DNA of 30,850 nt from a virus (taxonomy: Duplodnaviria; Heunggongvirae; Uroviricota; Caudoviricetes): IMG/VR virus record IMGVR_UViG_2917875804_000003. One strand, written 5' to 3'. The position numbers and the translations under genes are program-made. This document shows, in pieces, positions 9,680 through 15,116 of this stretch. Position 1 is the first letter of the stretch. Each line of letters opens with the position of its first letter. The notes beneath the pieces were generated by a model, which was not told the origin of the DNA, made no database searches, and saw only the letters and a list, made by a program, of their open reading frames with translations.

Positions 9680-10023
9680 AAATCCACCTGCGCAGAGATC
9701 CCACCAAAATCGTATGTACTCGCGGTTACCCACAGCCGCTTCTGACTTTCTTCACTGATTTCCACCGTACCCGGCACAATGCGTTCATCATATTCAATCA
9801 GTAATTCCATACGGGTAAAAATATCCGCTCTCATTGTCGGGCTACGTTCGGCTATTAATTCCGTAGCCAAACCACTTTCAATAATGGAATGAATAATGTC
9901 CTGCCCGATGCTTTTTCGGTTATTACATAATTCAGGTTCATTACCGGTATTCAGAACAAAATCACCGCCCTGAATCAGCAAATCAATATAAAGAACATTA
10001 CTCATGCACCAAGCTCCTGCCAT
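9676..10023 (-). CDS. baseplate protein, gpW/gp25-like
   Basis: 115-aa ORF immediately upstream of J-like gene and coupled to it; size and position match gpW (115 aa in P2). Confidence 0.5.
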   Translation of the reverse strand: MAGAWCMSNVLYIDLLIQGGDFVLNTGNEPELCNNRKSIGQDIIHSIIESGLATELIAERSPTMRADIFTRMELLIEYDERIVPGTVEISEESQKRLWVTASTYDFGGISAQVDL

Positions 10024-11968
10024 TCCATAAGCTGGAGTGGAGAAAATGCTTCTTTGGTATGGAAATGCACTTCACCAATTTTCCGGCTGTTATCGATTAC
10101 AGATGTTGTGTTGCTGCTGATTGTTTTACTGATACCACCATTATCCACACCTTTTAAATCGCCCCCCGTAGACAGCGTATTACCAGTTAATGGCTGTAAG
10201 GTTTCACTGGCCAGAGAAATATCCACGCCGGGAATTTCATTCAGTTTCTGAACAATCCAGTTCCACGACTTAAGAAATCCCTCTTTGATTGAGTTCCAGA
10301 CAATATCAAACAGCGACATAATACCGGTGGCCATTCCCTTTAATGCCTCAGATGGCGAAAATCCTGTCAGCATAGAAATGAAGCTGTTCCATCCATCACT
10401 GACATATTGCCAGGCTATAACAAAGATCCCCGCTAGCCATTTCACTACGGCAGCGCATACCTGAAAGGCTTCGGTATTCATCACCGATGCTTTTATCGTG
10501 TTCCAGTGCTTAACCAGCAGATAACAACCAGCAACAAGCAGCGCAATGGCACCAATCACAAGCAGGATTGGCCAGCTCATCAGATTGATACCAATTCCGG
10601 TCATCATTGCGGCCATGCGTACCGCCAGTAACGCGCCGCGTAAAAACTTCAGCGTGGTATTCCAGGCGATTACCGCCATTTGCGCCAGCCAGACAGTCGC
10701 CGTGTAGATTTTCGTAACCGCCGTTAACGCCCCCCAGATCCCACGTAATCCCATCATGATGAATCTGGATACCCCCATCACGATATTGCAACCGCACCCA
10801 CGGCGGCAAAGCTCAGTAGTGCCACCGACGCATAACCAATCACACGGGCAATGTTAGGAAACAACTGCATCCAACGAGCAAAGGTCTGCCCCATATCAGC
10901 CAGGCGATTCAGAACCGGATACAGCACCGGGATCAGCGTCAGTCCGATCACGGTCTGAATGGCTTTCAGGATTTGTACAAAGCGATCCCACGGCTTAACC
11001 ATTTTTTGTGCCATTTCCTGGGTACGCTTCAGGCCGTCCGCGCCGCCCAGTTCGGTGATGTTCCGCTGAAGTAACGCGACATTGCCGTAAAGATGTTTAA
11101 CCACTGCCGAACTGTCACCAAAGGCTGCATCCAGCTCCGCCTGGGCTTTCAGGTTCCCTTCAAGGCTTTTGCCATATTTGCCCTGCAACTTGATCAGCAT
11201 TTCAGGCATGGACAGCATTTTGCCGGTGGAGTCAGTAAAGGACAGCCCCAGCTTTTTAGCGCCATCAATCGCGCCGGTCATAAATCCTTCATAGGCGCTG
11301 CTGGCTTCCGTTCCCAGCGTCCGCTGAAGTTGCCCCAGCACGGCCAGCTGTTCATCCAGCCCCACACCGTAGTTAGTCCCGACGCCGCGCGCACCTTCCA
11401 TCAAATCCTTGATAGTGGCCATTTCTGTGCCAAAGGTTTTGCGCATATAAACCATCTTGCCTGCCAACTGCTCGGCAAATTCCACCTTGCCCAGTCTGGC
11501 GGCATCGGCGGAAAAGTTACCGAACATCTGCCCCATAAATTCCGCCGTGTCCGCCGCTGTGGACTTGAGCGCAAACGCCAGGGTATTGGCGACTTTCGTC
11601 ACCTTCGGCAGTTCATTACCCGTCAGTCCGGCAATGGAAGCGTTAATATTTTCCGTGGATTTAACAAACTCCACCGCACTGGCACCATAGGTTGTACTAA
11701 AGCGCAGGGCATCACGCTGAACTGTCTTAAGTGCTGAATCATCAATACCTTTTGCGGCAGCATCATTCAGCGCGTCATACATTTCAATTGCCGGTGATAA
11801 AGCACTTTTGATCTCCATCCCGATGCCTGCCAGCGCCAGAACGCCACCACCGATCTGCATAAAGGCTGCTTTTGATTTTTCCGCAAAGCCGGTGACGTTA
11901 CCTTGCACCTGTTTTAACGGGCGGGATAATTTATCAATCAGGCTTAATGTAAAATCTAATTGTTTCAT
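10002..11968 (-). CDS. tail tape measure protein, encoded as two overlapping ORFs (10778..11968 and 10002..10781) with a frame change at a GTGATG junction
   Basis: N-terminal ORF is long, helical and Ala/Gly-rich; C-terminal ORF is a hydrophobic multi-TM segment typical of tape-measure C-termini. Sits directly after the chaperone frameshift extension. Confidence 0.7.
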
Positions 11969-12416
11969 TCATTGCCTTTAAATGCTTTTGCCACACCATT
12001 GGCCACGGCTATTCCCGTATATTCCCAGTGACGATTGTCCAGCCAGATAGCGGCGGCGATATCATCAACGGAATCCTGACCATGTGGTAAATAATGACGG
12101 CGTAGAATTAAATATTGTTCGAGTCCATTCATTTCAATTTCATGGACTCGCTTTGTCAGTTTTTTACTTCAATTTCTAGTTCAGGCGCATAAATATCATT
12201 TACTTTGCCAACCAGTTGAAGTGCAGCACCCGGACGTTTTAATACTTCACAAAGTGAGGCTTTACTTTCAATCGCAACAATTCGTGTCAGATAGTTATGC
12301 GCAGGAGCAACCTTATTGTCCATTGCCATTTCATTAATAAATTTATTGTAGGCAGTCTGGTTTGGTTCAAAAATAATTTCAACACCACAAACACACAGTT
12401 TAATTTGTTCCATCAA
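11965..12416 (-). CDS. tail assembly chaperone with programmed -1 frameshift extension (E/E'- or G/GT-like)
   Basis: 86-aa ORF 12156..12416 ends ...GAA GTA AAA AAC TGA. The -1 frame after the slippery A-AAA-AAC stays open for ~64 codons and stops at a TGA overlapping the tape-measure ATG (11966-11968). Confidence 0.6.
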
Positions 12417-12697
12417 TAACTCTCTCTTAAAATAATTTCATCCACTAACTGATTATGACGTGCAGCACACTGACCATATAACTCAAGATAAATCGTCAGT
12501 AATTCCGCTGAGTCTTTTCCTGTCGCACCATTCAGGCGCGGCAACTGCGTGGCACATTTAGTTTTCAGATTTTCCTGATAACGCACGTTCGGTACCGGTT
12601 GCGGCACGGTTGTACATGCTGACAAACTCATCAGACAGGCAACGACTGGTAAAAACAGGCTTAAGCACTTCAGTGCGTATCTCTCGCGGTGCCACAT
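12413..12697 (-). CDS. o-spanin-like outer-membrane lipoprotein (Rz1-like)
   Basis: Signal peptide with lipobox LSAC (...LFLPVVACLMSLSACTT...); overlaps the 3' end of the i-spanin candidate in another frame. Exact start uncertain. Confidence 0.55.
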   Translation of the reverse strand: MWHRERYALKCLSLFLPVVACLMSLSACTTVPQPVPNVRYQENLKTKCATQLPRLNGATGKDSAELLTIYLELYGQCAARHNQLVDEIILRESY

Positions 12698-12897
12698 TTT
12701 TTTAACGCCTCCAGTTTATCTTCCAGCGCTCTGGCCGAATCACTGGCAATACCCTGCATTGCTTTTCGCGATTCAGTACCGGCCACCTGCGCCGCTGTAT
12801 TGATTGCCAGCTCTAAGCTATCACGCCGCCAGTCAGCGGTTAGCCAGCCCCAGACAAACGCCAGCGCCACCACAACCAACCACTGCCCGCTGCTCAT
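12670..12897 (-). CDS. i-spanin-like protein (Rz-like)
   Basis: 75 aa, N-terminal TM segment (WLVVVALAFVWGWL) then charged helical region; directly downstream of the endolysin. Confidence 0.5.
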   Translation of the reverse strand: MSSGQWLVVVALAFVWGWLTADWRRDSLELAINTAAQVAGTESRKAMQGIASDSARALEDKLEALKKCGTARDTH

Positions 12898-13536: not shown

Positions 13537-13992
13537 TTATCCGATCAGGTTTTCTGTGGCTTCCGCTTCCAGATACGGCACACCGTTGATGTTGACGAAT
13601 TTCGGACTGGTCACGAAATATTTGATTTTGTGCGTGGTCACACCGCCACCTTTCGGATCAATATCCAGCAGGTTGCTGACCTGCAATTTATTGCCGAACG
13701 TCTCCACCTTCATTTCTTCGCTACTGGCTTTGGCATAGAAAAGAAAATCAAGTGGTGGAAGCCCACGCCATGAACCCGCTGCACGGGCTTTGGCTGTCAG
13801 CACCTGAAGTGTTTTTGAACTGACTTCAATTTCCCCCTCAGCGGCAACATCGCCATCCACATACCCATCAGGGACGCCACGCGTCTGGGCGGCAGCGCTG
13901 TTATCCGTAATATCGAGCGTGATTTTCTCGATATGGATCAGATCGCCGTCCATATAGGTGTCAAACGACATACCCGAAATACGTTTGGTCAT
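13537..13992 (-). CDS. tail tube protein (putative)
   Basis: 151-aa ORF coupled (4-nt overlap) to the upstream sheath candidate; size and position fit a myovirus tube protein. Confidence 0.55.
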   Translation of the reverse strand: MTKRISGMSFDTYMDGDLIHIEKITLDITDNSAAAQTRGVPDGYVDGDVAAEGEIEVSSKTLQVLTAKARAAGSWRGLPPLDFLFYAKASSEEMKVETFGNKLQVSNLLDIDPKGGGVTTHKIKYFVTSPKFVNINGVPYLEAEATENLIG

Positions 13993-15116
13993 GCTATAGC
14001 CTCCAGACTGGCATCCAGTAACAGGCTGATGGTGATTTGCAGTGGCACTTCCCAGGTACGTACCACAATGTAAATATCAACTGCCTTTTTGTTCTTCCAG
14101 ACAATGGATACATCACCATCCTGCGGCGGCTTCACTTCTCCGGGAAATGACACCCCATTAATGCTGGCCGCAGTAGACATTTCGCGCAGTGGACTGGCGA
14201 ACAGTGTCTGATGTGCGGCGATACTTCCTGGCGTGCTATTCAGCGAACGATCAGCGATTTTACTGATAGCCAGCAAACGAACACGGCGGGCAGCTTTATC
14301 CGCGACGCGCAAAGTTTCAATCGACTGATAATCGCCGCCCTCAACGTCCAACGTGCGGCCATCTGACCAGTAAAAACCGTCATAATCCGGGTACCACATT
14401 GGCACACTGAAACGCTGTGCTTCCAGCGCCTGAAGTGTGGCCAACTCAAGAACTTCTCCGGTACCATCAACCGGCATTTCGTCACTGCCCAGATTCATCA
14501 GCGCACCGGTTTTAACCCTCGCCGGACTATCTGCAATAGTCACCATACAGCTACACAGACGACCAGCCAGCACACCCGGTTCATTTCCCCACAGCCGGGG
14601 AACCAACTGAACCGACTTTTCTGCAATCCCATCCTGAAGAGTGGCCAAGCGAACCAAGTAATCCGCCTGGGCTTCTTCGTCCTGCACTCCCTGTGCGGCC
14701 AGAATGAACCACACCCAGCGGCCATACTTTGAAATCAGGGTGGTTCGTAACGTCACTGCCTGATTTACTTGCGCTTTAGCAGTGACATCGTCAGACAGCA
14801 CCACGCCTTCCACAGAGCACACCACCTGCGCGGCTAAAACCGCTTTCACCCAGGCGTCCGCCTCCGCGTCAGCTGGCAGGACGTGAATGAACCCCCACCA
14901 GTTCTGGCCAGCGTTCGCCAGCGCAGCCAGAACATCATTTTTCAGCGGGCTGGCTTCCTCGCCCAGCAGTGAATCAAAATCACTCTGGGCATTCACCGCC
15001 AGCGTTTTCCCCACATTTTTGGTACCCGTGCCGATAAACAGCAGTGTGCGTTCCACCTCATTGGTTTCACCCATCAGCTGATTTACCTGGTTTACGGTCA
15101 CAATTGGCCAGGTCAT
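13989..15116 (-). CDS. tail sheath protein (putative)
   Basis: 375-aa ORF between the virion-morphogenesis gene and the tube gene, coupled to both; called on position and size only. Confidence 0.5.
   Translation of the reverse strand: MTWPIVTVNQVNQLMGETNEVERTLLFIGTGTKNVGKTLAVNAQSDFDSLLGEEASPLKNDVLAALANAGQNWWGFIHVLPADAEADAWVKAVLAAQVVCSVEGVVLSDDVTAKAQVNQAVTLRTTLISKYGRWVWFILAAQGVQDEEAQADYLVRLATLQDGIAEKSVQLVPRLWGNEPGVLAGRLCSCMVTIADSPARVKTGALMNLGSDEMPVDGTGEVLELATLQALEAQRFSVPMWYPDYDGFYWSDGRTLDVEGGDYQSIETLRVADKAARRVRLLAISKIADRSLNSTPGSIAAHQTLFASPLREMSTAASINGVSFPGEVKPPQDGDVSIVWKNKKAVDIYIVVRTWEVPLQITISLLLDASLEAIA

What the first reader, a model, noticed from the sequence alone, without database searches (positions are those of the whole stretch)
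11965..12416. Programmed -1 frameshift signature in the tail assembly chaperone gene
The chaperone ORF ends ...GAA GTA AAA AAC TGA. The heptamer A-AAA-AAC is a canonical slippery site, and the -1 frame beyond it stays open for ~64 codons through the whole 188-bp apparent intergenic gap, ending at a TGA that overlaps the tape-measure ATG. This matches the conserved chaperone/extended-chaperone arrangement (lambda G/GT, P2 E/E') and explains the gap with no annotated ORF.
Basis: partly seen in the sequence, partly recalled or inferred. Interest (0 to 1): 0.4.

Follow-up and report, generated by a model that had tools for sequence, protein, structure and literature searches.

The report
Unannotated tail-chaperone -1 frameshift site
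A phage tail-assembly chaperone gene carries a conserved slippery site that very probably lets a few ribosomes slip back one base and make a longer second protein; the device is well known in other phages, but is not annotated in any record of this phage family that I examined.

Summary
An 85-codon tail assembly chaperone gene (12413..12156, Pfam Phage_TAC_10) ends GAA GTA AAA AAC TGA. From the heptamer A_AAA_AAC (12165..12159) the -1 frame stays open for 64 more codons. It stops at a TGA (11967..11965) that overlaps the tape-measure ATG (11968).

The heptamer and the open frame are not unusual on their own. Conservation is what makes the case. In about 260 distinct related loci the heptamer sits at the same codons. 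It reads A_AAA_AAC or A_AAA_AAA with an adjacent stop, or A_AAA_AAG in a Pseudomonas clade. Its synonymous positions are frozen. Codon-position variability switches from frame 0 to frame -1 exactly at the heptamer. The extension is a conserved domain (Pfam DUF6890) with no conserved start codon or ribosome-binding site. Genuine in-frame fusions are essentially absent.

In the window's own clade, a 9-bp hairpin lies 8 nt downstream and shows compensatory changes.

Best reading: programmed -1 ribosomal frameshifting produces a 149-aa long form of the chaperone, analogous to lambda G/GT and P2 E/E+E'. There is no detectable sequence homology to either. None of the 12 annotated phage records and the one RefSeq E. 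coli record I examined annotates the slippage. It is a new member of a known kind, of modest interest, and no experiment has tested it.

The parts
12156..12413 (-). Tail assembly chaperone ORF in frame 0 (85 aa plus TGA). This is the short, abundant product.
12420..12424 (-). Shine-Dalgarno-like GAGAG, 6 nt upstream of the chaperone ATG (12413).
   Evidence: Read directly from the sequence. The upstream spanin ORF stops at TGA 12415..12413, overlapping the ATG.
12159..12165 (-). Slippery heptamer A_AAA_AAC in X_XXY_YYZ phase (GTA AAA AAC).
   Evidence: The motif is identical in 119 of 122 intact close relatives and in HP1, F108 and phiO18P. The third codon positions of GTA, AAA and AAC are A in 110/110, A in 109/110 and C in 108/110 distinct sequences, whereas ordinary third positions have an entropy of about 1.3 bits.
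12156..12158 (-). Frame-0 stop codon TGA, directly abutting the heptamer. It may act as a 'shifty stop' stimulator.
   Evidence: A stop (TGA, TAA or TAG) immediately follows the heptamer wherever its last base is C or A, and in none of the 77 phi3-type loci where it is G.
12169..12171 (-). TGA in the -1 frame. It limits the overlap of the two frames to 10 nt (12168..12159).
   Evidence: Read directly from the sequence. The -1 frame is open for only one codon upstream of the heptamer in 76 of 86 loci.
11965..12159 (-). -1 frame extension: 64 sense codons (LTKRV...KGNE) plus TGA. It is the C-terminal part of the predicted 149-aa long form. Predicted CDS: complement(join(11965..12159,12159..12413)).
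   Evidence: Translation. Pfam PF21830 DUF6890, E = 3e-24. phrog_7050. Codon-position entropy of 0.54/0.36/1.21 in the -1 frame, matching 0.49/0.34/1.31 for the chaperone body in frame 0. No conserved start codon or SD.
12120..12150 (-). Hairpin with a 9-bp stem (CGAGUCCAU / AUGGACUCG) and a 13-nt loop. It begins 8 nt after the heptamer and is the likely 3' stimulator of frameshifting.
   Evidence: MFE -14.5 kcal/mol, z = -3.3. On 67 distinct sequences, 80% of cells are paired against 13-39% when partners are slid, with 47 double-change cells against 10-21 and a covariation score of 0.295 against at most 0.059. RNAalifold recovers the same helix. It is present in the window's clade, in Erwinia L113 and in Pragia L121. 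Vibrio and Salinivibrio phages have analogous hairpins, mostly (3 of 4) at the same spacing. It is absent from the Aeromonas, Brenneria, YenM324, SI7, HP1 and phi3 lineages.
10778..11968 (-). Tape measure gene, N-terminal ORF. Its ATG (11968..11966) overlaps the stop of the -1 extension (ATGA).
   Evidence: phrog_28 tail length tape measure, E = 8e-82. Pfam PhageMin_Tail. Annotated as tape measure in relatives.

Best explanation
The locus is the tail assembly chaperone gene pair of an HP1-type (ESSI-2-like, Peduoviridae) contractile-tail module.

Most ribosomes translate the 85-codon chaperone and terminate at the TGA that abuts A_AAA_AAC. A small fraction slip back one nucleotide on the A-run. 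There are two possible routes: tandem slippage of the P-site Lys-tRNA and the A-site Asn-tRNA, or slippage of the P-site Asn-tRNA while the adjacent stop codon waits in the A site. These ribosomes continue in the -1 frame for 64 codons and terminate on the TGA that overlaps the tape-measure ATG. The result is a 149-aa long form: a Phage_TAC_10 domain followed by a DUF6890 domain.

In this clade, a 9-bp hairpin 8 nt downstream probably pauses the ribosome over the heptamer and raises the yield.

By analogy with lambda gpG/gpGT, the shared N-terminal part would coat the tape measure protein and the extension would recruit the tube protein. Neither product would end up in the virion.

Shown here: the sequence geometry, conservation of the site, coding constraint in the -1 frame, absence of an independent start, covariation in the hairpin, and a TAC-like fold.

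Inferred: that the shift is ribosomal, its efficiency (probably about 1% or less to a few per cent), and the roles of the two products.
For: - Geometry.
- The chaperone is a TAC by Pfam and by fold. The next gene is the tape measure.
- The heptamer is invariant in position across 258 distinct loci: 146 AAAAAAC, 44 AAAAAAA, 68 AAAAAAG.
- Synonymous sites within GTA AAA AAC are frozen. Codon periodicity switches from frame 0 to frame -1 at the heptamer.
- V-K-K is the only fully invariant run of three residues in the fused-protein alignment.
- The -1 ORF is a conserved Pfam domain. Its first ATG/GTG/TTG ranges from codon 4 to codon 57, and only 23 of 258 loci have an SD-like motif.
- The codon after the site is CTA, CTG, ATA or GCN, with GTC in 7 of 258 loci; none of these is ATG, GTG or TTG.
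- In 1.84 billion representative proteins, hits cover either the N part or the C part. The one that spans the junction is an indel-damaged fragment. All 113 hits in the 5.8-billion-sequence set cover the chaperone part only; none extends into the -1 region.
- tblastn finds the fused query in two pieces in 65 phage records.
- Hairpin.
- One relative (L107) has the interrupted run GTA_AAG_AAA, which still contains the ribosomal shift motif A_AAG (PMC5009743).
- A_AAA_AAC is a proven -1 site in E. coli IS1 (PMC4066793). It is also the reported g-t shift site of haloarchaeal virus HCTV-2 (PMC5009743).
- The architecture parallels P2 E+E': a TAC domain plus a short domain at residues ~104-140 of 142-149 aa (PMC3091744).
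Against: - No protein or RNA data exist. Everything rests on comparative sequence analysis.
- A_AAA_AAC is a poor shifter in E. coli reporters: 0.16% unstimulated, 0.19% with the IS911 stimulator, 0.74% with the IS3 stimulator, against 39% for A_AAA_AAG (PMC4066793, Table S3). The yield may be very low unless the adjacent stop or the hairpin helps more than those stimulators did.
- The hairpin is not universal in the family.
- Three of about 310 loci encode the fusion in a single frame through +1 nt at the site. An all-long-form arrangement may therefore be tolerated, or those assemblies contain errors.
- Insertion of one A by RNA polymerase would give the same protein and cannot be excluded from DNA alone.
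- None of the 12 annotated phage records and the one RefSeq E. coli record I examined annotates slippage.
Confidence: 0.85

Rival explanations
1. Transcriptional slippage. RNA polymerase adds one A in the A6 run, so a subset of mRNAs encodes the fused 149-aa protein by standard translation.
For: The site is a homopolymer: A6 here, A7 in the Vibrio clade. A +1 A transcript would give exactly the predicted product. Two related assemblies carry a run one A longer and so an in-frame fusion (L216, L295), which shows the run is length-unstable at some level.
Against: Efficient bacterial RNA polymerase slippage is described for runs of about 9 A or T (PMC5009743). Here the run is 6. Relative L107 has an interrupted run (AAAGAAA) yet keeps the arrangement. 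A covarying hairpin placed 8 nt 3' of the site is the geometry of a ribosomal stimulator. The last base of the heptamer varies (C, A or G) in step with the presence of an adjacent stop codon. A stop codon can only matter to a ribosome.
Confidence: 0.07
2. Two independent genes. The -1 ORF (DUF6890) is translated on its own, by initiation at a non-canonical codon such as the CTG used in RefSeq annotation, or by termination-reinitiation at the overlapping stop.
For: PGAP annotates a separate 'DUF6890 family protein' starting at the CTG that overlaps the chaperone stop. Several phage records annotate a short separate ORF. In the window there is an in-frame ATG at 12132.
Against: The codon at that position is CTA, CTG, ATA or GCN, with GTC in 7 of 258 loci, so there is no common start. 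The first canonical start lies anywhere from codon 4 to codon 57, and 235 of 258 loci lack an SD-like motif upstream of it. The window's ATG 12132 is ATA in the closest relative, L006, and AGA, AGG or CAG in others. Conservation of the protein begins at the heptamer itself, with VKK invariant. In the phi3 clade the frame-0 stop lies 7 codons beyond the start of the conserved -1 sequence, so reinitiation cannot explain it. No promoter-like site lies in the gap on this strand.
Confidence: 0.05
3. Artefact or decay. The two frames result from a sequencing error or a frameshift mutation in what is really a single 149-codon gene.
For: The same window has a 1-nt deletion that splits the tape measure gene, so indels do occur in this sequence. 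Three related loci have the single-frame version.
Against: The two-frame arrangement, with the same heptamer, is found in more than 300 independently assembled loci. These include isolate phage genomes and complete E. coli chromosomes. The frame-0 stop directly after the heptamer is conserved as a stop although its sequence varies (TGA, TAA or TAG).
Confidence: 0.02

Closest known systems
Phage P2 E / E+E' (Peduoviridae): -1 frameshift at T_TTT_TTG giving 91-aa and 142-aa proteins (PMC3091744; record NC_001895)
   Same: Same virus family. The gene sits directly upstream of the tape measure gene. A short product and a -1 extended product of nearly the same sizes (85/149 aa here, 91/142 aa in P2). 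The -1 ORF ends at the tape-measure start. The domain layout is the same: a TAC domain plus a ~40-aa domain at residues ~104-140.
   Different: Different Pfam families: Phage_TAC_10 + DUF6890 here, Phage_TAC_7 + Phage_P2_GpE in P2. hhalign probability is 0.5%. The heptamer differs (A_AAA_AAC against T_TTT_TTG). Here the frame-0 stop abuts the heptamer, whereas in P2 it lies 6 codons later. This clade has a downstream hairpin; none is reported for P2 (PMC3091744). A lysis cassette lies between the tube and chaperone genes here and in HP1.
Phage lambda G / GT tail assembly chaperones (-1 frameshift at G_GGA_AAG; G:GT ratio about 30:1; PMC5009743)
   Same: [quoted passage not shown] The locus lies between the major tail and tape measure genes. 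The presumed logic is the same: a fixed low ratio of long to short form.
   Different: No sequence relationship was detected, and Pfam does not hit the lambda gpG family. The heptamer differs. This is a myovirus tail module rather than a siphovirus one. The functions of the two products are inferred here, not shown.
Haemophilus phage HP1 orf26 and the unannotated ORF before orf27 (NC_001697)
   Same: True homologue: Phage_TAC_10 + DUF6890, 45% identity to the fused query. Identical GTA_AAA_AAC + stop. Same gene order: sheath, tube, holin, lysin, spanin, chaperone, 188-nt 'gap', tape measure.
   Different: HP1 lacks the hairpin at 8 nt. It has an imperfect 13-bp hairpin about 24 nt downstream. 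The HP1 chaperone has a 16-aa N-terminal extension. I could not establish whether the HP1 frameshift has been described. Searches found nothing, and Christie et al. 2002 and Xu et al. 2004 are not held.
IS1 insA-insB' -1 frameshift at A_AAA_AAC (PMC4066793)
   Same: The same heptamer, proven to work as a low-efficiency -1 site in E. coli.
   Different: IS1 is a transposase gene with no established stimulator. Here there is an adjacent stop codon and, in this clade, a covarying hairpin.
E. coli dnaX and IS3-family -1 frameshift signals (A_AAA_AAG plus a 3' stem-loop or pseudoknot; PMC5009743, PMC4066793)
   Same: An A-rich heptamer decoded by Lys-tRNA in the P site, followed by a stem-loop a few nucleotides downstream.
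   Different: The last base of the heptamer is C, which is far less shift-prone in E. coli. The window has no clear upstream SD-like stimulator (CTAGAAATTGAAGT). The frameshift product is longer than the frame-0 product, not shorter as in dnaX.

Membership tests
Tail assembly chaperone pair made by programmed -1 frameshifting (lambda G/GT, P2 E/E+E' paradigm) | The gene lies immediately upstream of the tape measure gene, in the tail module downstream of the tube gene. | tested here: met
   Gene order is sheath 13989..15116, tube 13537..13992, lysis cassette, chaperone 12156..12413, tape measure 10778..11968. HP1 has the same order.
Tail assembly chaperone pair made by programmed -1 frameshifting (lambda G/GT, P2 E/E+E' paradigm) | A second ORF in the -1 frame overlaps the 3' end of the chaperone gene and has no start codon or RBS of its own. 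| tested here: met
   The frames overlap for 10 nt and the -1 ORF runs for 64 codons. There is no conserved start, and 235 of 258 loci lack an SD-like motif.
Tail assembly chaperone pair made by programmed -1 frameshifting (lambda G/GT, P2 E/E+E' paradigm) | A slippery X_XXY_YYZ heptamer lies in phase within the overlap and is conserved among relatives. | tested here: met
   A_AAA_AAC at 12165..12159. [quoted passage not shown] Its synonymous sites are frozen.
Tail assembly chaperone pair made by programmed -1 frameshifting (lambda G/GT, P2 E/E+E' paradigm) | The -1 extension is under protein-coding selection. | tested here: met
   Entropy by codon position is 0.54/0.36/1.21 in the -1 frame. 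Pfam DUF6890, E = 3e-24.
Tail assembly chaperone pair made by programmed -1 frameshifting (lambda G/GT, P2 E/E+E' paradigm) | The N-terminal protein has a tail-assembly-chaperone fold. | tested here: met
Tail assembly chaperone pair made by programmed -1 frameshifting (lambda G/GT, P2 E/E+E' paradigm) | Two polypeptides sharing an N-terminus are actually made, at a fixed low long:short ratio. | not testable with these tools
   This needs protein analysis (western blot or mass spectrometry).
Tail assembly chaperone pair made by programmed -1 frameshifting (lambda G/GT, P2 E/E+E' paradigm) | Both products are required for tail assembly and are absent from virions. | not testable with these tools
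   This needs genetics and virion proteomics.
Pfam PF10963 Phage_TAC_10 | Score above the gathering threshold (25.7 bits). | tested here: met
   116.7 bits, E = 5e-34, covering profile positions 1-82 of 82.
Pfam PF21830 DUF6890 | Score above the gathering threshold (23.6 bits). | tested here: met
   84.8 bits, E = 3e-24, covering profile positions 1-44 of 44, on the -1 frame translation.
P2 gpE / gpE+E' sequence families (PF10109 Phage_TAC_7, PF06528 Phage_P2_GpE) | Sequence membership in those Pfam families, or detectable homology to P2 E+E'. | tested here: not met
   The window proteins do not hit them. hhalign of 11 fused HP1-type sequences against P2 E+E' gives probability 0.5%.
P2 gpE / gpE+E' sequence families (PF10109 Phage_TAC_7, PF06528 Phage_P2_GpE) | T_TTT_TTG shift site. 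| tested here: not met
   The site here is A_AAA_AAC. P2 has TTTTTTG (PMC3091744).
-1 PRF signals with a 3' RNA stimulator (dnaX / IS3 type) | A stable stem-loop or pseudoknot starts about 5-9 nt after the heptamer and is supported by covariation. | tested here: met
   9-bp stem, 8-nt spacer, z = -3.3. Covariation score 0.295 against at most 0.059 in slid controls. This holds for the window's clade only.
-1 PRF signals with a 3' RNA stimulator (dnaX / IS3 type) | An upstream SD-like stimulator. | tested here: inconclusive
   Most relatives have CTGGA(A/G) 8-13 nt upstream. The window has CTAGAA. No clear SD.
Programmed transcriptional slippage | A homopolymer run long enough for RNA polymerase slippage (about 9 A or T in described bacterial cases). 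| tested here: not met
   The run is A6 here, A7 at most in relatives, and interrupted in L107. Requirement taken from PMC5009743.

The most novel reading that the evidence does not exclude
The functional signal may not be the classical heptamer alone. It may be a 10-nt 'shifty stop' element, A_AAA_AAN_stop, in which slow termination at the abutting stop codon lets the P-site tRNA slip back on the A-run.

The evidence is that the two weak heptamers (last base C or A) are always followed directly by a stop, whereas the strong A_AAA_AAG version in the Pseudomonas clade never is. If this is right, the long:short chaperone ratio would be coupled to release-factor activity, and clade-specific hairpins would tune it further.

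The correlation rests on only three clades, so it may reflect shared ancestry rather than function.
Probability: 0.3. Interest if true: 0.45.

Novelty: new member of a known kind. Interest (0 to 1): 0.3.

Why it matters
Practically, it corrects an annotation. In the records examined, the 187-nt 'gap' or the separate 'DUF6890 family protein' (given a CTG start in RefSeq) in HP1-type Peduoviridae phages and prophages is best read as the frameshift extension of the tail assembly chaperone. These elements occur in Escherichia, Salmonella, Cronobacter, Yersinia, Aeromonas, Haemophilus, Pasteurella, Vibrio and Pseudomonas. This reading gives Pfam DUF6890 a probable role as the counterpart of lambda's T domain and P2's E' domain.

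Mechanistically, one homologous site exists in three natural versions: a weak heptamer with an adjacent stop, with or without a hairpin, and a strong heptamer without an adjacent stop. That makes a convenient natural series for testing how heptamer strength, an adjacent stop codon and a 3' hairpin trade off in bacterial -1 frameshifting.

It does not change the general picture, because chaperone frameshifting in long-tailed phages is well established.

Tried and rejected
- Chance statistics on the heptamer count and on open -1 frames after stops showed that neither feature is significant alone. I dropped them as arguments.
- The single-sequence AlphaFold model of the fused 149-aa protein was unusable (pLDDT 42). 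The extension could not be modelled with an alignment, because only window and database proteins may be submitted.
- A profile search of the fused alignment against PDB sequences found nothing significant.
- hhalign against P2 E+E' found nothing.
- An Rfam scan of 11900..12500 gave only a chance hit.
- NCBIfam has no model for either part.
- The promoter and terminator scan found nothing relevant on the coding strand. The hairpin has no U-tract, so it is not an intrinsic terminator.
- Literature searches for an HP1 orf26 frameshift, for DUF6890, and for an ESSI-2 frameshift found nothing. The phiA051 paper lists the two ORFs separately. Christie et al. 2002 is not held, and I could not consult Xu et al. 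2004. I therefore cannot say whether HP1 was already listed there.
- The 1009-aa top hit P0114 in the representative search is a low-complexity tandem-repeat protein, not a relative.
- P0145, the only hit spanning the junction, is an indel-damaged HP1-like fragment.
- I first wrote the junction as ..VKK-LTK... Under classical tandem slippage, and under P-site slippage at the stop, it would be ..VKN-LTK... The residue at position 85 is therefore left open.
Full report
**Observation.** The genes in this part of the window run on the minus strand.
A GAGAG motif lies 6 nt upstream, and the preceding spanin ORF stops on the overlapping TGA.
- The ORF ends ...GAA GTA AAA AAC TGA at 12156 and encodes 85 aa.
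- The heptamer A_AAA_AAC occupies 12165..12159 in X_XXY_YYZ phase.
- From it, the -1 frame reads K K and then 64 further sense codons. It stops at TGA 11967..11965, inside the ATGA that starts the next gene at 11968.
- The apparent intergenic gap is 187 nt.
- One detail sharpens the picture. The -1 frame has a TGA at 12171..12169, so the two frames are open together for only 10 nt (AGTAAAAAAC). Any change of frame has to happen on the A-run.

**Is it more than chance?** Not on its own. AAAAAAC occurs 13 times in the window against 9.2 +/- 3.2 expected. In this compact genome, 27 of 102 long ORFs are followed by an open -1 frame of this length, mostly because the next gene lies there. The case therefore rests on context and comparison.

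**Context.**
- The ORF is a tail assembly chaperone by Pfam (PF10963 Phage_TAC_10, E = 5e-34).
- The -1 translation is Pfam PF21830 DUF6890 (E = 3e-24).
- The next gene is the tape measure (phrog_28; PhageMin_Tail).
- Upstream lie sheath, tube (Phage_HP1_Orf24), holin, endolysin and spanins.
- The window is about 93% identical to Escherichia phages ESSI2_ev129, ev015 and ev040. It is related to Cronobacter phage ESSI-2, Yersinia phage vB_YenM_324 and Salmonella phage SI7, all Peduoviridae.
- Haemophilus phage HP1 has the same gene order, including a 188-nt gap between orf26 and orf27.

**Comparative evidence for recoding.** I collected the locus from these sources:
- 80 IMG/VR contigs and 39 GTDB genomes related to the window;
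- 191 further IMG/VR contigs related to Pseudomonas phage phi3, Vibrio phage yong1 and HP1;
- 13 annotated phage records.

Results:
- Among 122 intact close relatives, 119 have AAAAAAC followed at once by a stop. The -1 frame is open for 62-64 codons in all of them and ends at or beside the tape-measure ATG.
- The same GTA_AAA_AAN codons recur in distant clades:
  - AAC + stop in HP1, F108 and phiO18P, and in 64 of 64 HP1-like contigs;
  - AAA + TAG in 43 of 44 Vibrio-type contigs;
  - AAG with the frame-0 stop 7 codons later in 77 of 79 phi3-type contigs.
- In 110 distinct sequences, the third codon positions of GTA, AAA and AAC are A in 110, A in 109 and C in 108. Ordinary third positions have about 1.3 bits of entropy.
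- Per-position entropy is 0.49/0.34/1.31 for codon positions 1/2/3 of the chaperone in frame 0. Downstream of the heptamer it is 0.54/0.36/1.21 in the -1 frame. The coding signature changes frame exactly at the heptamer.
- In an alignment of conceptually fused proteins from 11 genera, V-K-K at the junction is the only invariant run of three residues.

**No independent expression signal.**
- In 258 distinct loci, the codon after the site is CTA, CTG, ATA or GCN, with GTC in 7.
- The first ATG, GTG or TTG in the -1 ORF lies anywhere from codon 4 to codon 57.
- Only 23 loci have an SD-like motif before it.
- The window's own ATG at 12132 is ATA in its closest relative.
- No promoter-like site lies in the gap on this strand.
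- RefSeq gives the ORF a CTG start overlapping the chaperone stop and calls it 'DUF6890 family protein'. Phage records leave the region empty or annotate a truncated ORF.
- None of the 13 records I examined annotates slippage, whereas P2 E+E' is annotated as a join.

**No single-frame version.**
- A search of 5.8 billion proteins with the fused sequence returned 113 chaperones of 81-99 aa and nothing longer.
- An exhaustive HMMER search of 1.84 billion representatives returned only N-part or C-part proteins. The single junction-spanning hit is an indel-damaged HP1-like fragment.
- tblastn against phage genomes finds the fused query in two pieces in 65 records.
- Three of about 310 loci do have an in-frame fusion, each through +1 nt exactly at the site: A7G, A8, and A6C followed by an extra base. 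These may be errors, mutations or real variants.

**A downstream hairpin.**
- Eight nucleotides after the heptamer, the window can form a 9-bp stem with a 13-nt loop (12150..12142 pairing with 12128..12120). MFE is -14.5 kcal/mol and z = -3.3 against shuffles.
- On 67 distinct sequences aligned without gaps:
  - 80% of cells are paired, against 13-39% when the 3' partners are slid by 1-3 columns;
  - 47 cells carry changes on both sides, against 10-21;
  - the covariation score is 0.295, against at most 0.059.
- RNAalifold recovers the same helix unprompted.
- Synonymous changes in the 3' arm (codons N-G-L-E) are matched by non-synonymous changes in the 5' arm. Examples: CGAGUCCAU/AUGGACUCG here, CGAAUCCG/CGGAUUCG in L039, CUAACCCG/CGGGUUAG in Pragia.
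- The hairpin is clade-specific. It is present in the window's clade, in Erwinia L113 and in Pragia L121. Stronger, analogous hairpins occur at the same spacing but in another register in three of the four Vibrio and Salinivibrio phages; PV94 has one closer to the heptamer.
- I found no convincing hairpin in the Aeromonas, Brenneria, YenM324, SI7, HP1 or phi3 lineages.
- It has no U-tract and is not terminator-like. Rfam has nothing here.

**Mechanism.** The best-supported reading is programmed -1 ribosomal frameshifting. It yields a 149-aa protein, complement(join(11965..12159,12159..12413)), alongside the 85-aa chaperone.
- A_AAA_AAC is a proven -1 site in E. coli IS1 (PMC4066793). It is also the reported g-t shift site in haloarchaeal virus HCTV-2 (PMC5009743).
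- In E. coli reporters it is weak (PMC4066793, Table S3):

| Heptamer | No stimulator | IS911 stimulator | IS3 stimulator |
|---|---|---|---|
| A_AAA_AAC | 0.16% | 0.19% | 0.74% |
| A_AAA_AAA | 0.41% | 0.82% | 24.8% |
| A_AAA_AAG | 0.29% | 4.3% | 39% |

- A low yield fits the biology. Lambda needs G:GT at about 30:1 (PMC5009743).
- The weak versions of the heptamer (last base C or A) always have a stop codon directly after them. The strong version (G) never does. This suggests that slow termination at the abutting stop helps the slip, the 'shifty stop' idea cited in PMC5009743. The correlation spans only three clades, so it is a hypothesis, not a result.
- Residue 85 of the long form would be Asn under tandem slippage or P-site slippage at the stop. 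It would be Lys if the Lys-tRNA slips before Asn-tRNA binds.
- The roles of the two products (N part on the tape measure, extension recruiting the tube protein) are inferred from lambda and were not tested.

**Rivals.**
- Transcriptional slippage would give the same protein, but four points argue against it.
  - The run is A6, and efficient bacterial cases use about 9 (PMC5009743).
  - One relative has an interrupted run that still contains the ribosomal motif A_AAG.
  - The 3' hairpin points to the ribosome.
  - The dependence on an adjacent stop codon also points to the ribosome.
- Independent initiation or reinitiation is contradicted by the absence of any conserved start. It is also contradicted by the phi3 clade, where the conserved -1 sequence begins 7 codons before the frame-0 stop.
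- Sequencing error is excluded by the number of independent assemblies.

**Comparison with known systems.**
- The arrangement and presumed mechanism are those of lambda G/GT and P2 E/E+E'.
- The domain layout matches P2 closely: a TAC domain plus a ~40-aa domain at residues ~104-140 of a 142-149-aa protein.
- The families differ: Phage_TAC_10 + DUF6890 here, Phage_TAC_7 + Phage_P2_GpE in P2. hhalign gives 0.5% probability.
- The heptamer, the abutting stop and the hairpin also differ from P2, where no hairpin is found (PMC3091744).
- This is therefore a functional analogue and a separate sequence family, whose true homologue among classical phages is HP1 orf26.
- I found no paper describing the frameshift for this family. 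I could not consult Christie et al. 2002 or Xu et al. 2004, so prior mention cannot be ruled out.

**Verdict.** It is a new, unannotated member of a well-known kind of recoding signal. Its value is mainly in correcting annotation, giving DUF6890 a probable role, and offering a natural series of three site variants for mechanistic work. Interest is modest (0.3).

Noticed in passing
window 10778..10790 (minus strand); ORFs 10778..11968 and 10002..10781: The tape measure gene is split into 396-aa and 259-aa ORFs by a 1-nt deletion (GTTGCCAAT becomes GTTG-CAAT, near 10788/10789) relative to L006 and phage ev129, where it is one 655-aa ORF. The site is not slippery. It is either a genuine inactivating mutation (defective prophage) or an assembly error.
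   Followed up: partly
L215:650-690, L216:645-690, L295:650-690: Three of about 310 related loci encode chaperone and extension in one frame because of +1 nt exactly at the slip site: A6C plus an extra base in L215, A7G in L216, A8 in L295. In L215 the -1 frame then stops after 6 codons, which would invert the usual logic (long form by default). These may be errors, mutations or real variants.
   Followed up: partly
L134:1567-1761 (E. coli EC42405, NZ_CP043414): RefSeq/PGAP annotates the -1 ORF as a separate 64-aa 'DUF6890 family protein' with a CTG start overlapping the chaperone stop. 39 of 5426 complete E. coli genomes carry this prophage region.
   Followed up: yes
L215-L294 (phi3-type), L295-L341 (Vibrio-type), L342-L405 (HP1-type): The homologous shift site comes in three clade-specific versions: A_AAA_AAC + stop, A_AAA_AAA + TAG, and A_AAA_AAG with the stop 7 codons downstream. 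An adjacent stop goes with the two heptamers that are weak in E. coli reporters.
   Followed up: partly
L125:4515-4550 (HP1); L129 about 585-615 (F108): Pasteurellaceae phages lack the hairpin at 8 nt. They have a 13-bp hairpin (perfect in F108, two mismatches in HP1) about 24 nt after the heptamer. That is too far for a classical stimulator, and its role is unknown.
   Followed up: no
P0118, P0177, P0187: Some metagenomic proteins of 180-210 aa contain two tandem Phage_TAC_10-like domains, each ending in a ..V.KK motif. This is a duplicated chaperone architecture not seen in the window's clade.
   Followed up: no
window 11965..12416: The chaperone/extension region has 39% G+C against 49% for the whole window.
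   Followed up: no
window 12413..12897 (minus strand): The spanin region is organised differently from the annotation of phage ev129. Here there are a 94-aa ORF (12413..12697, hitting both Rz-like spanin and Rz1-like LysC models) and a 75-aa ORF (12670..12897). In ev129 there are a 112-aa Rz-like spanin and an embedded or overlapping 62-aa ORF. I did not examine this further.
   Followed up: no
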